Positions 49,801-52,800 of a stretch of DNA of 64,000 nt are shown piece after piece. Each line of letters begins with the position of its first letter. Within the stretch, counting starts at the first letter, position 1. The position numbers were made by a program. Where the stretch lies: assembly GCF_056712565.1 (NCBI RefSeq), contig NZ_CM160072.1. One strand, written 5' to 3'.

Positions 49801-52800
49801 CCTCCTGAATAGCGATCAGTTTGATTACATGTGTCGCATTGTGCGCGGTCGTGATGATGAACGCATGAACCGCTTCAAGCTGGATGTTACGAAGGCATTC
49901 GCAAAACATCGCGCTACCGAGCCTGTACGCCGTGAATATCTGCCAGGCTATCACGAAAGCCGTGACGGGCTTAAAGCACTGGGCGCAGAACGTCACCATT
50001 ACATCAATCTGGCACGCGCAGAGAACCGTGTTACAGGTCTGGTAACTGGCGAACGAGGCACAGCCAGCGAGCAGCAGTTAGGCTTGCTGATTGTCATGCA
50101 GAAAATCGAACAGGCCGCATTTGAGGAGGCGATACAGAACGGCATGACACCTACCGAAGCAGTGCGGGAGGTTGCCCGACGCATGGAGACATTCGCCAGC
50201 CTGATGACATCTGAGCCGTATCTGGGGGTAAATCATGCTTAAGGATTTCGCCGCACTTATTCCGGTATCACCTGGCATTATTGGCGGACATGAAACAGCC
50301 ATTGTCAGCGCCAGAGCGTTACATAAGGCGCTTGGTGTGAAGCGTGATTTCACTACATGGATTAAAGGGCGTATTGATCAGTACGGATTTAAAAATGGCG
50401 TGGATTTTGAGTTTGTAGAAAATTTGACCTCCCCCAATCCGGTGAGCGCAAAATCTCGCCAACGTGTAGAGCACGACTACCTGAGTACCATCAACATGGC
50501 GAAAGAACTTGCGATGGTCGAGCGTACCGAACAGGGCCGCGCTATTCGTCAGTACTTCATCAAATGCGAGGAGGAGCTACACAAAGTAGCGCCAGTGCGT
50601 TCCGCAGCGTTACGCCGTGAACTGAAAGCCCGTATCACCGTTGCCAGCTACTTTAAGCCGATGTGTGCCGCGCTGGAGGCGTACCGCGCTGAACTGGGTA
50701 AAAACACGCTCCAGCACCACTACACCACGGAAGCCAATATGCTGGCGCGTATCGTGCTGGGTGGCATGACTGCAAAACAGTGGGCGCAGGCGAACGGCAT
50801 CACAGGCGAACCACGCGACCACATGAGCACGCTGCAGCTTGAGCACCTTTCTTACCTTGAGCAGAGCAATATCACGCTGATTGAGTTAGGCCAGGACTAC
50901 CACCAGCGGAAAGCTGAATTAATTCGTCTTTCGCAACGCTGGTTAGCCCGCCGCATGGAGGTGAGCAGCCATGCGTAAACCTGTCTTTTATGCCGGGCGC
51001 ACTGAAATCTCTGTCATTAAATTCGATGACATTCAGGTGCGCATAGTGAGTATCAACGGCGAGCCGTGGTTTGTTGGCGCTGATGTGTGTGCTGCGCTGG
51101 AAATCAGCAATGTTACTGATGCTGTTTCAGTTCTGGATAACGACGAGGTAATGACCCTAGCTTTAACCGAGGGGCATTCCGGTAAGCGTGGTGGTGCCAG
51201 AAGCTGGAATGTTGTCTCTGAATCAGGTTTCTACAAACTGATCGCCCGCAGCCGTAAAGCTTCCACACCTGGCACATTTGCGCACCGTTTCAGTAACTGG
51301 GTATTCCGCGAGGTTATTCCTTCAATCCGCAAAACGGGGAGTTATGGTGTTCCGTTTGCCATGCTGAATGATTTCAGTAAACGCCAGGCTGCATATCAAC
51401 AGGAAGCCAGCAAACGCGGTTACAGGTTACAGCAATGCAAAGAGGCAAAAGATGCACTGGAACGAGAAGAGCGGGCGCTATGGCGTAAATATCAGCCTGA
51501 TTTTCTGGAGGGTGAAAGCAATGTGTAACGATCCGAACGTTACAGAAAGAAAAAGCGCCCCGTTGCTGGATAACAGGCAAAACAAAGGCGACCGGGATAG
51601 GTCGCCAGTGGGAACAAAGGAAATCAAACGCATCGCCAACAATGCCAGATTTGCGGCTGGTGGGCAATGTGATCAGTGTGCTGGCTTGCTGGTGGGCTAT
51701 TCCTGCTCTTTAGCATCGCCATACTGCGATGTTTTCCAGGTATGCGATCCCATTTTTGTGCGCCTGTACTCTTTTAAGAACTTCTCAAGGACAAACGCAC
51801 ATGGCGCAAATCTTTCCTGTTCTTGTTCGCTTACCGCATTTTTGCGTTGTTTTTTCCTGGATGAGGATAATTTCTTTAATGATTTGTCAGTCATCGTAGA
51901 TACCTGTAACCCTGTGCGCCACAGTTCACCGCACCACGGCGCTGGTGATGGTTACTCCTGCTCTTTGGCCTTCCGGCGCTGTTCATATTTTAATTTGCGT
52001 CCACAGGCATCTAAGACCCATGCGGAAAAATTAGCACTAGGATTAGTTAATTTTTCTTGTTCAACACTGGCATCAATCCCATCTATAAGCTCGTGCGGGA
52101 ATCGAATATTTTTCTTTGCTGATTTGTTGTTTGTGTTTCCGCTAGACATTGGTACACCTCACTTAAATGGATTTGATGGGCGCACACAATACAGCAAAAA
52201 AAGTGAGAAGTTAAGTATTGACATGTGCGCACACATGATTTTAATCTGTGCGCACAGTTTGGGTTGCATTGCTCAAATTAAGCAACGCCCCGCAGTGCTC
52301 GCAACACATGCAGGGCGTCTAACCACCAACGATAGAAAGCGTATCGAGGTAGCTATGTTAAATCATACCACACACCCGCAAGGGCGGGACTCGCACAACC
52401 TGAATAAATACATCTGGCGTTTTATCGCCCTGAGCACCGCACAACCACGCGTAATACACATCGAGGCCGCCAGCGAACAGGAAGCCCGTCAGCAATCCCC
52501 GGCTGGCTGCGTGATGGTATTTACTGCCCGCATCCGTCAGGGGGAATACTATGCGTGATGAACGATTTATTCTTCTGGAGCAAAAATTCAGTGAAGCGCC
52601 AAAAAATGAAATTGATGCTCTTTTGCATATCGCGAATATGCTAAAAGTAGCAACGTTCCTTATAGTTTCGAATCTGGAGCATGAAACGGCGTTAGATATA
52701 CTGAACAGTGCTGTCGATTATTCTGAATATATTGCCGAGGATAAATACAGGCAATTACCAGATTTGTTAGCCCATAAATATAAAGAAGAACCTCACACCG

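What the first reader, a model, noticed from the sequence alone, without database searches (positions are those of the whole stretch)
52177..52257. Three TGTGCGCACA palindromes in a divergent promoter region: candidate genetic switch
The 10-bp perfect palindrome TGTGCGCACA occurs twice exactly (52224, 52247) and once with a single mismatch (52177), overlapping a TTGACA -35-like hexamer. The region lies between two minus-strand small genes (one RHH-like) and the plus-strand operon leading into the replication initiator. This resembles a repressor-controlled induction switch for the island.
Basis: partly seen in the sequence, partly recalled or inferred. Interest (0 to 1): 0.65.

Follow-up and report, generated by a model that had tools for sequence, protein, structure and literature searches.

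The report
Repressor operators of a phage-satellite island
The three palindromes are very probably the DNA sites where a tiny, previously uncharacterised repressor protein encoded next door shuts off the replication genes of a phage-parasitic island in E. coli, and the same cassette sits unnoticed in the best-studied island of this kind, where no repressor has been reported in the papers I could search.

Summary
TGTGCGCACA occurs exactly at 52224 and 52247 (0.14 expected per window) and with one mismatch at 52177. The sites sit on two back-to-back promoters. One site fills the spacer of the plus-strand promoter, one covers its -10 end and start site, and one covers the -10 end and start of the minus-strand promoter of a 65-aa gene.

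In 52 distinct related loci, from Escherichia to Gilliamella and Pasteurella, this geometry (23 bp and 47 bp spacing) is kept. The core sequence differs between loci but matches among the three sites of each locus.

Core type follows the N-terminal arm of the adjacent YlcI/YnfO (DUF3950) protein, chiefly residues 5 and 12. It does not follow the downstream Icd-like gene. A predicted dimer of this protein has the ribbon-helix-helix fold.

The gene and its operators are swapped as one roughly 300-bp cassette. The island is a Gram-negative PICI, and the prototype EcCICFT073 carries the same cassette with a different specificity.

Best reading: a ribbon-helix-helix repressor that autoregulates and represses the Icd-like/primase operon. 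Binding, promoter activity and the induction route are inferred, not shown. It is a new member of a known kind, with real relevance for PICI biology.

The parts
52176..52187 (.). Operator O1 (ATGGGCGCACAC; 10-bp core TGGGCGCACA at 52177-52186, one mismatch to the palindrome). It overlaps the -10 end and predicted start of the ylcI-like promoter and is the presumed autoregulatory site.
   Evidence: A site at offset -42/-41 from the -35 is present in most of the 52 loci and matches that locus's own O2 (mean 9.49 of 12 against 8.00 in other loci; permutation 0 of 2000). The mismatch is conserved in all E. coli-type loci L033-L047.
52223..52234 (.). Operator O2 (ATGTGCGCACAC; exact palindrome at 52224-52233). 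It fills the start of the -35/-10 spacer of the plus-strand promoter.
   Evidence: In every locus a 12-mer of form GTG(T)-N4/6-(A)CAC begins at the last base of TTGAC.
52246..52257 (.). Operator O3 (CTGTGCGCACAG; exact palindrome at 52247-52256). It overlaps the last bases of the -10 and the predicted transcription start of the plus-strand operon.
   Evidence: It lies 23 bp from O2 in about 45 of 52 loci. Central-8 identity to O2 is 7.18 within a locus against 4.48 between loci (permutation 0 of 2000).
52218..52247 (+). Predicted promoter of the Icd-like/primase operon: -35 TTGACA (52218-52223), 18-bp spacer, -10 TAATCT (52242-52247).
   Evidence: TTGAC and TA...T at fixed 18-bp spacing are the most conserved columns across 30 non-redundant loci. 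The strict consensus scan does not call it. No transcript data.
52186..52214 (-). Predicted promoter of the ylcI-like gene: -35 TTAACT (52209-52214, minus strand), 17 bp, -10 TATTGT (52186-52191, minus strand).
   Evidence: A conserved TGTA..GT block directly abuts O1 in relatives (TATAGT, TATGGT, TAAGGT). The -35 is weak and read from the sequence only.
51952..52149 (-). ylcI-like gene. It encodes a 65-aa YlcI/YnfO-family (DUF3950) protein, predicted to be a ribbon-helix-helix repressor. Strand is residues 10-17 (invariant R16 F17 P18), with helices at 19-32 and 41-65.
51697..51894 (-). Second 65-aa ORF downstream of ylcI. It is probably co-transcribed, and minus-strand terminator-like hairpins follow at about 51545-51645. 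Function unknown. It is not part of the conserved module.
   Evidence: phrog_21027, full length. No Pfam, NCBIfam or PADLOC match. Absent from L002-L032. A 57-aa relative is present in EcCICFT073.
51982..52281 (.). Exchangeable specificity cassette: the body of ylcI, both promoters, O1-O3 and the first leader hairpin.
   Evidence: Against EcCICFT073 the window is 76% identical up to 51981 and 90% identical from 52282 on, with no detectable similarity in between. Equivalent swaps are seen for L073/L055 and L059/L057.
52258..52346 (+). Structured 5' leader of the operon: hairpin P0 (52258-52277, read by eye and from the MFE fold), hairpin P1 (52285-52318), invariant single-stranded CUAACCACCAACG (52319-52331), and hairpin P2 next to the Shine-Dalgarno sequence (52330-52346).
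   Evidence: For P1+P2, 86.6% of cells are paired against 72% shuffled and 34-41% slid. 14 of 18 pairs show compensatory changes. Covariation is 0.382 against 0.133, 0 of 500 shuffles. The MFE fold gives the same hairpins. No Rfam family matches.
52355..55236 (+). Regulated operon: Icd-like gene (52355-52558), hypothetical (52551-52808), DUF4222 (52811-53113) and DUF927 primase/helicase (53110-55236). SSB, ProQ/FinO-like and PerC-like genes follow.

Best explanation
The three sites are operators for the 65-aa YlcI/YnfO-family protein encoded at 51952-52149, which I infer to be a ribbon-helix-helix dimer.

Bound at O2 (in the -35/-10 spacer) and O3 (over the -10 end and start site), it would block RNA polymerase at the promoter of the Icd-like/DUF4222/primase operon. 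That would keep replication of this PICI-type island off. Bound at the weaker, mismatched O1 over its own -10 and start site, it would limit its own synthesis.

Specificity would lie in the N-terminal arm and strand, chiefly residues 5 and 12, with 4, 11 and 14 contributing. These would read the variable centre of a 12-bp GTGT-N4-ACAC site. The gene and its operators move between islands as one cassette, which would give islands distinct immunity types.

What is shown: the sites, their conserved geometry, their concerted evolution, the linkage to the protein's N-terminus, the cassette exchange and the predicted fold.

What is inferred: binding, repression, promoter positions and the induction route. 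My proposal for induction is that helper-induced AlpA drives plus-strand transcription from the int/alpA/ant side through the convergent ylcI gene. That would silence ylcI and read into the operon.
For: - Exact palindromes are far above chance.
- Geometry is conserved in 52 distinct loci from genome and viral collections.
- The -35, the -10 and the GTG/ACAC flanks are conserved, while site centres vary.
- Sites within one locus resemble each other more than sites elsewhere (7.18 against 4.48 of 8; permutation 0 of 2000).
- Operator similarity correlates with the YlcI protein (Mantel rho 0.19, p 0.013) but not with the Icd-like protein (rho 0.05, p 0.22).
- Per-column analysis places the signal at residues 5 (r 0.54) and 12 (r 0.51), then 4, 52, 11, 14 and 9. 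Apart from K52 (r 0.25), the helices score near zero.
- Natural swaps exist. L073 and L055 are 95.8% identical from +36 to +2047, but ylcI is only about 76% identical and the operators show no detectable similarity. L059 and L057 differ only from -76 to +61.
- Locus pairs with different operators but few protein changes always differ at residues 5 and 12.
- The second small ORF is missing from L002-L032. The Icd-like gene is missing from several loci that keep the operators.
- The same layout is present in EcCICFT073 with GTGGGCCACAC sites.
Against: - There is no experimental binding or transcript-start data.
- The promoter scan did not call either promoter. The 18-bp spacer and TAATCT are sub-optimal.
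- The whole-protein correlation is weak, and all correlation tests are confounded by shared ancestry.
- Residue 14, which I first expected to matter, varies (N, Y, G) without any operator change.
- The dimer was imposed with an artificial linker, and four of the five AF2 models had low confidence.
- Foldseek E-values were weak (0.14). Sequence search of the PDB found nothing.
- In EcCICFT073, AlpA expression alone induces excision and replication (PMC6092414). The repressor therefore cannot be the only control.
- EcCIMP1, a functional relative, has no such cassette.
Confidence: 0.72

Rival explanations
1. The sites are operators, but for a different protein: the island's AlpA-like HTH, the Icd-like protein (its PHROG families are labelled 'transcriptional repressor'), the second 65-aa ORF, or a host factor.
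For: - AlpA is the experimentally established regulator of Gram-negative PICIs (PMC6092414, PMC11773190).
- phrog_6196 and phrog_1743 carry the label 'transcriptional repressor'.
- The outer GTG...CAC bases are the same in all types, as a common factor would need.
- AlpA genes were outside most fetched flanks, so co-variation with AlpA could not be tested.
Against: - The Icd-like protein is uncoupled from operator type (rho 0.05; 98% identical Icd with different operators) and is absent from some loci that keep the sites.
- The second ORF is absent from L002-L032.
- A host factor cannot explain ten or more locus-specific cores that evolve in concert.
- The signal maps to specific YlcI residues.
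Confidence: 0.12
2. The repeats are iterons of a replication origin, bound by the downstream DUF927 primase/helicase as in the P4 ori/crr repeats.
For: - There are three short repeats at regular spacing just upstream of a replication operon.
- P4 alpha protein binds short repeated octamers (from my own knowledge, not checked here).
Against: - The sites sit exactly on promoter elements.
- Islands with 95.8% identical downstream DNA over 2 kb have unrelated sites (L073/L055).
- In PICIs the origin is reported downstream of pri (PMC10111431, PMC6092414).
Confidence: 0.03
3. The palindromes act as nucleic-acid hairpins (a terminator or attenuator, or cruciform DNA) and not as protein sites, or they are chance repeats.
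For: The terminator scan flags 52222-52237 followed by a T-rich run.
Against: - In many relatives the cognate sites are not palindromic (GTGGGTGCACAC, GTGCCCCAACAC), yet they keep their position and copy number.
- The stem is only six pairs including G-T.
- Chance is excluded and by conservation.
Confidence: 0.02

Closest known systems
Phage P22 immI region: Mnt and Arc ribbon-helix-helix repressors with operators at the divergent Pmnt/Pant promoters
   Same: - A small ribbon-helix-helix repressor gene is transcribed divergently from the operon it controls.
- Operators lie inside and over the promoter elements and also serve autoregulation.
   Different: - There is no detectable sequence relationship.
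- There are three separate 12-bp sites at 23 and 47 bp, rather than one 17-21-bp operator per repressor.
- The controlled operon starts with an Icd-like gene and leads to a primase, not to an antirepressor.
- The P22 details come from my own knowledge and were not checked here.
Stl/Rpr master repressors of Gram-positive PICIs (SaPIs)
   Same: The position in the element is the same: the repressor lies between the int side and the divergently transcribed replication operon, with the control region in the intergenic gap (layout as described in PMC6092414).
   Different: - The fold class is different (Stl proteins are not ribbon-helix-helix, from my own knowledge) and there is no homology.
- The protein is much smaller.
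- Derepression by a helper protein is unknown here.
- Gram-negative PICIs additionally use AlpA as an activator.
EcCICFT073 and other Gram-negative PICIs regulated by AlpA (Fillol-Salom et al. 2018, PMC6092414)
   Same: - The element type and gene order are the same: int, alpA, Icd-like, DUF4222, primase, SSB, PerC.
- The leader and Icd-like gene are 90% identical to the window.
- EcCICFT073 carries the same ylcI/three-operator cassette.
   Different: - The published model has only the activator AlpA and states that a global repressor is 'unclear'.
- The cassette has another specificity (GTGGGCCACAC; the protein has ARVPHE instead of IRFPHE).
- The late genes differ: capsid genes there, ejection-protein-like genes here.
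Phage P1 immI (c4 RNA, icd, ant) and P4 CI RNA immunity
   Same: An Icd-like gene is the first gene of an immunity-controlled operon and is preceded by a structured leader.
   Different: - There is no C4 or IsrK match even at E up to 5-10.
- There is no second copy complementary to the leader linker.
- Control here appears to be by a protein at the promoter.
CopG of plasmid pMV158 and ribbon-helix-helix antitoxins (ParD, TacA and others)
   Different: - This is not a toxin-antitoxin pair. In several loci ylcI is a solo gene next to int, and there is no PADLOC hit.
- The gene is not the first gene of the operon it represses.

Membership tests
YlcI/YnfO family (NCBIfam NF041551; Pfam DUF3950 PF13132) | Profile score above the curated cutoff | tested here: met
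   59 bits against a cutoff of 30, residues 9-56. PF13132 i-E 1.6e-6.
YlcI/YnfO family (NCBIfam NF041551; Pfam DUF3950 PF13132) | Same genomic context as the name-giving K-12 genes | tested here: not met
   K-12 ylcI lies next to cos/nohD in DLP12 without the three-site promoter layout. The island proteins form their own context subgroup.
Ribbon-helix-helix DNA-binding superfamily | Beta-alpha-alpha topology forming an intertwined dimer with a two-stranded antiparallel ribbon | tested here: met
Ribbon-helix-helix DNA-binding superfamily | Detectable sequence similarity to solved members | tested here: not met
   A profile search of PDB sequences gave 0 hits at E up to 10. There is only a weak HicB-like hit, E 0.25.
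Ribbon-helix-helix DNA-binding superfamily | Sequence-specific DNA binding through the ribbon | not testable with these tools
   It is indirectly supported by operator co-variation with residues 4-14.
Repressor/operator switch at divergent promoters | Repeated cognate sites overlapping core promoter elements of both transcription units | tested here: met
   The sites lie in the spacer and over the -10/+1 of the plus-strand promoter, and over the -10/+1 of the minus-strand promoter, at fixed offsets in about 45 of 52 loci. The promoters themselves are predicted.
Repressor/operator switch at divergent promoters | Sites and regulator co-evolve (specificity pairs) | tested here: met
Repressor/operator switch at divergent promoters | Regulator lowers transcription from the promoter | not testable with these tools
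   This needs reporter fusions or RNA data.
Gram-negative PICI (phage-inducible chromosomal island) | int, alpA and primase in the conserved order, with no full set of virion genes | tested here: met
   Annotation. Synteny and 74-90% DNA identity with parts of EcCICFT073. Gene content resembles EcCIMP1.
Gram-negative PICI (phage-inducible chromosomal island) | Induction and packaging by a helper phage | not testable with these tools
   This has been shown for EcCICFT073 and EcCIMP1 in the literature only (PMC6092414, PMC11773190).
C4/IsrK/P4-CI type RNA immunity | Match to Rfam C4 or IsrK covariance models near the Icd-like gene | tested here: not met
   No such match at gathering score or at E up to 10.
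Replication-origin iterons | Repeat sequence follows the initiator protein | tested here: not met
   Downstream DNA that is 95.8% identical over 2 kb carries unrelated sites.

The most novel reading that the evidence does not exclude
The YlcI/YnfO-type ribbon-helix-helix protein is the missing master repressor of Gram-negative PICIs, including EcCICFT073, and is the functional counterpart of Stl/Rpr. Its exchangeable gene-plus-operator cassettes would define immunity groups that let several islands coexist in one cell. Induction would work by helper-triggered, AlpA-driven transcription running antisense through the convergent repressor gene and on into the replication operon. That would be a convergent-transcription flip rather than an anti-repressor.
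Probability: 0.35. Interest if true: 0.75.

Novelty: new member of a known kind. Interest (0 to 1): 0.58.

Why it matters
Gram-negative PICIs are widespread phage satellites that move virulence and defence genes. Their published control model has only an activator, AlpA. [quoted passage not shown]

This analysis gives a concrete candidate. It is a 60-70-aa protein of a family with no known function (DUF3950), with defined operators, a predicted fold and predicted specificity residues. It is present in the model island EcCICFT073 and in relatives in roughly a sixth of complete E. coli genomes (901 of 5426 have a match to the EcCICFT073 cassette).

The idea is directly testable with gel shifts, reporter fusions and a deletion in EcCICFT073. 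The set of ten or more natural operator/arm pairs would also be a compact resource for orthogonal repressors. Several database records omit the gene altogether.

Tried and rejected
- Rfam at gathering score on the whole window, and at E up to 5-10 on 51600-52900 and 46500-57500, found nothing relevant and no C4 or IsrK.
- The consensus promoter scan called no promoter in 51500-52700. The promoters were instead defined from conservation.
- Foldseek with the monomer model gave 0 hits. The PDB sequence profile gave 0 hits. Foldseek with the linked dimer gave only weak E-values.
- Literature searches for the palindrome, YlcI/YnfO, DUF3950, and PICI plus ribbon-helix-helix found nothing relevant.
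- PADLOC found nothing for the five small proteins. Pfam found nothing for the second 65-aa ORF.
- The phage collection holds no close relative of the island.
- Automatic RNAalifold recovered only part of the leader structure. The full structure was specified by hand and counted.
- Residue 14 as the main specificity residue was rejected, because N, Y and G all occur with TGTGCGCACA.
- A toxin-antitoxin reading of ylcI plus the second ORF was rejected, because the second ORF is not conserved and ylcI is often solo.
- An antisense partner for the leader linker was rejected, because there is no second copy in the window.
- EcCIMP1 was checked as a possible identical element. It has related gene content but lacks the cassette.
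Full report
**Observation.** The window is E. coli chromosome. TGTGCGCACA is exact at 52224-52233 and 52247-52256, and TGGGCGCACA is at 52177-52186. Two exact copies compare with 0.14 expected, and no shuffle of 100 gave two. One-mismatch matches are at chance level over the window (4 found, 3.8 expected), so the third site needs other support. That support comes from comparison with related loci.

**Surroundings.** The sites lie in the 205-bp gap between a minus-strand gene at 51952-52149 and a plus-strand operon.
- The minus-strand gene encodes a 65-aa protein of the YlcI/YnfO family (NF041551, 59 bits against a cutoff of 30; Pfam DUF3950).
- The plus-strand operon holds an Icd-like gene (52355-52558), a hypothetical gene, a DUF4222 gene and a DUF927 primase/helicase (53110-55236). 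SSB, ProQ/FinO-like and PerC-like genes follow.
- A second 65-aa ORF (51697-51894) follows ylcI on the minus strand. It matches only an uncharacterised PHROG family.
- Upstream on the plus strand are an integrase, an AlpA-like HTH protein, two AntA/B-type proteins and a BRO-N protein.

**Relatives.** The YlcI-like protein has 115 database relatives at 49-97% identity across Enterobacterales. Scans of one-genome-per-species contigs and of viral contigs returned 85 loci, which reduce to 52 distinct versions of the control region.

**Conserved architecture.** Read in the direction of the plus-strand operon, every locus has the same layout.
- TTGAC(G/A) comes first.
- A 12-bp site begins at the last base of that hexamer.
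- An 18-bp spacer follows, then a TA...T hexamer (TAAGGT, TATGGT, CATACT; TAATCT in the window).
- A second site starts 23 bp after the first and overlaps the end of that hexamer.
- 47 bp upstream of the first site, a third site abuts a conserved TGTA..GT block. That block reads as the -10 of the ylcI promoter.

In 30 non-redundant loci the best-conserved columns are the -35, the -10 and the outer GTG/ACAC bases of the sites, while the site centres vary. In window coordinates:

| Feature | Position | Sequence |
|---|---|---|
| Plus-strand promoter -35 | 52218-52223 | TTGACA |
| Plus-strand promoter -10 | 52242-52247 | TAATCT |
| ylcI promoter -35 (minus strand) | 52209-52214 | TTAACT |
| ylcI promoter -10 (minus strand) | 52186-52191 | TATTGT |
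| O1 | 52176-52187 | ATGGGCGCACAC |
| O2 | 52223-52234 | ATGTGCGCACAC |
| O3 | 52246-52257 | CTGTGCGCACAG |

Sites in the spacer and over the start point are positions from which a bound protein excludes RNA polymerase. This is established knowledge and was not tested here.

**Concerted evolution.** Exact TGTGCGCACA sites occur at the same offsets in Rahnella (all three perfect), Pectobacterium and Xenorhabdus. Gilliamella and Orbus have TGTCCGCACA. Other loci carry different cores at the same positions, for example GTGTATATGCAC, GTGGGTGCACAC, GTGCCCCAACAC, GTGTTTAAACAC and GTGTGGCCGCAC.
- Within a locus the centres of O2 and O3 agree at 7.18 of 8 positions, against 4.48 between loci.
- A locus's O2 finds a better match in its own O3 and O1 zones than in those of other loci (10.67 against 8.23, and 9.49 against 8.00).
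- No permutation of 2000 reached either observed value.

This is the pattern expected for operators of a locus-specific protein. It excludes a hairpin role, because many cores are not palindromic.

**Which protein.**
- The second small ORF is absent from L002-L032.
- The Icd-like gene is usually the first gene of the operon, but it is missing from several loci that keep the sites. It is also uncoupled from operator type (Mantel rho 0.05, p 0.22). For the YlcI-like protein the values are rho 0.19, p 0.013.
- Column by column, operator similarity tracks YlcI residues 5 (r 0.54) and 12 (r 0.51), then 4, 52, 11, 14 and 9. Apart from K52 (r 0.25), the two helices score near zero.
- Pairs of loci with different operators but only 6-10 protein differences always differ at residues 5 and 12. 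Pairs with the same operator and more than 20 differences mostly keep those two residues.

These tests share the weakness that related sequences are not independent. The mosaic cases below are free of that problem.

**Cassette exchange.**
- L073 and L055 are 95.8% identical from +36 to +2047, covering the leader, the Icd-like gene and the following genes. Their operators show no detectable similarity and their ylcI genes are only about 76% identical.
- L059 and L057 are 92-93% identical on both sides and differ only from -76 to +61, which covers the operators and the first codons of ylcI.
- The window and EcCICFT073 are 76% identical up to 51981 and 90% identical from 52282 on. They have no similarity between those points.

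The unit of exchange is therefore ylcI plus its operators. This also argues against origin iterons read by the downstream primase.

**Fold.**
- A monomer model has an extended N-terminus (residues 1-18) and helices at 19-35 and 41-64.
- I joined two copies with a flexible linker and supplied an alignment built the same way. The best model (pTM 0.67) pairs residues 10-17 of the two halves as a ribbon.
- The invariant I/V-R-F-P segment precedes helix 1, as in ribbon-helix-helix proteins.

This is prediction only. The other four models were poor, and sequence search of the PDB found nothing.

**Element type.** The gene content matches Gram-negative PICIs.
- EcCIMP1, an island shown to be induced and transduced by phage Kapi1 (PMC11773190), has similar genes: antA, DUF4222, Icd-like, TOPRIM/DUF927 primase, ejection-protein-like genes and PerC. 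It has no ylcI cassette.
- The prototype EcCICFT073 has int, alpA, a 57-aa ORF, a YlcI/YnfO gene on the opposite strand, then Icd-like, DUF4222, primase, SSB, PerC and capsid genes. Its intergenic region shows TTGACG, GTGGGCCACACC, an 18-bp spacer, TATAGT, GTGGGCCACACC, and an upstream GTGGGGGACAG site.
- A later survey describes the genes as mostly unidirectional and does not mention this protein (PMC10111431).
- I found no paper on YlcI/YnfO, DUF3950 or the palindrome. Subscription journals are not covered by that search.

The cassette is also present in a 16.5-kb capsid-encoding element recovered as an 'induced prophage' (LR881103) and in Pasteurella element Pmp7. In both, the deposited annotation has ORFs on the wrong strand over it.

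The TGTGCGCACA type occurs once each in 68 of 5426 complete E. coli genomes. Relatives of the EcCICFT073 cassette occur in 901 genomes, with up to four places per genome.

**Mechanism proposed.** The YlcI-like dimer would occupy O2 and O3 and keep the Icd-like/primase operon silent. It would also damp its own promoter through O1, whose single mismatch is conserved in all E. coli-type loci and may make it the weakest site.

How the block is lifted is unknown. Expression of alpA alone induces EcCICFT073 excision and replication (PMC6092414). All terminator-like hairpins between the BRO-N gene and the cassette are on the minus strand. I therefore suggest that AlpA-driven plus-strand transcription runs antisense through ylcI and into the operon. 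A helper-encoded anti-repressor, as for SaPI Stl, is the alternative. Both are inference.

**Leader RNA.** Downstream of O3 the transcript would carry a conserved leader.
- It has a long hairpin (52285-52318), an invariant CUAACCAC(C)AACG linker, and a short hairpin at the Shine-Dalgarno sequence.
- On 25 diverse sequences, 86.6% of cells pair, against 72% shuffled and 34-41% slid. 14 of 18 pairs show compensatory change. Covariation is 0.382 against 0.133, with 0 of 500 shuffles as high.
- The window's own fold shows the same hairpins.
- It matches no Rfam family, including C4 and IsrK, and no complementary copy of the linker exists in the window.
- Its role is open. It stays with the Icd-like gene, not with the cassette.

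**Verdict.** It is a classical kind of switch built from an uncharacterised protein family, so I rate it as a new member of a known kind. Its main value is that it points to an overlooked repressor candidate in a well-studied class of phage satellites.

Noticed in passing
window 52258-52346 (and the same region in L002-L086): The 5' leader of the Icd-like operon is conserved and structured: a long hairpin, an invariant CUAACCACAACG linker, and a Shine-Dalgarno hairpin. Compensatory changes are strong and no Rfam family matches. The linker loosely resembles a boxA element. Function unknown.
   Followed up: partly
L092 (NC_004431) 7243-7860: The prototype Gram-negative PICI EcCICFT073 carries a YlcI/YnfO gene, a 57-aa partner ORF and three GTGGGCCACAC-type sites in the same layout. 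The locus tags (C_RS30120/30125/30800) look like late additions to the annotation.
   Followed up: yes
L089 (LR881103) 8994-9560; L090 (OR544138) 4435-5109: Deposited annotations of two satellite-like 'phage' records miss the ylcI-like and Icd-like genes and instead call ORFs on the opposite strand. One of those ORFs is labelled 'transcriptional repressor'.
   Followed up: partly
L048 and L044 (IMG/VR E. coli-type loci), control region: L048 has lost one 23-bp unit, so O2 and O3 are fused and the -10 is gone. L044 has an extra 23-bp unit, giving one more operator. These look like recombination between the direct repeats.
   Followed up: no
L073, L066, L051, L055, L015, 41-42 bp after the -35: A perfect DnaA box (TTATCCACA) lies immediately downstream of O3 in 5 of 52 distinct loci. 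It is not present in the window's island (46000-58000).
   Followed up: partly
window 51697-51894 versus 51952-52149: The two 65-aa ORFs both end in AKEQE and share about 29 bp of similar DNA at their 3' ends (83%). This end is also where similarity to EcCICFT073 resumes, which suggests a recombination joint.
   Followed up: partly
window 57470-62061: Two large ORFs (843 and 686 aa) match PHROG families for head or ejection proteins with a transglycosylase segment. They resemble the 'DNA transfer' proteins of EcCIMP1, whose helper is vB_EcoP_Kapi1. This may hint at the helper type.
   Followed up: partly
window 51524-51645: Four terminator-like hairpins between the BRO-N gene and the small ORFs are all on the minus strand, as is a fifth inside the second small ORF (51796-51808). 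None was found on the plus strand, so read-through from the alpA/ant side towards the cassette is conceivable.
   Followed up: no
L088 (K-12 DLP12) 16252-16834; phage lambda records H55-H67: K-12 ylcI sits beside cos and nohD without the three-site layout. tblastn also finds a 43%-identical YlcI/YnfO-like reading frame in several lambda and lambda-related phage records (H55-H63, H67) that list no annotated feature under the match.
   Followed up: partly
window 598-675 and 37312-37350: Rfam gathering-level matches to naRNA4 (a REP-type element) and to a JUMPstart element. They are unrelated to the island.
   Followed up: no
L003/L015 (Serratia sp. Ag1) and L019/L023 (Xenorhabdus kozodoii): Two cassettes in one genome carry different operator types and different N-terminal arms. 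This fits distinct immunity groups, but there are only two cases.
   Followed up: no
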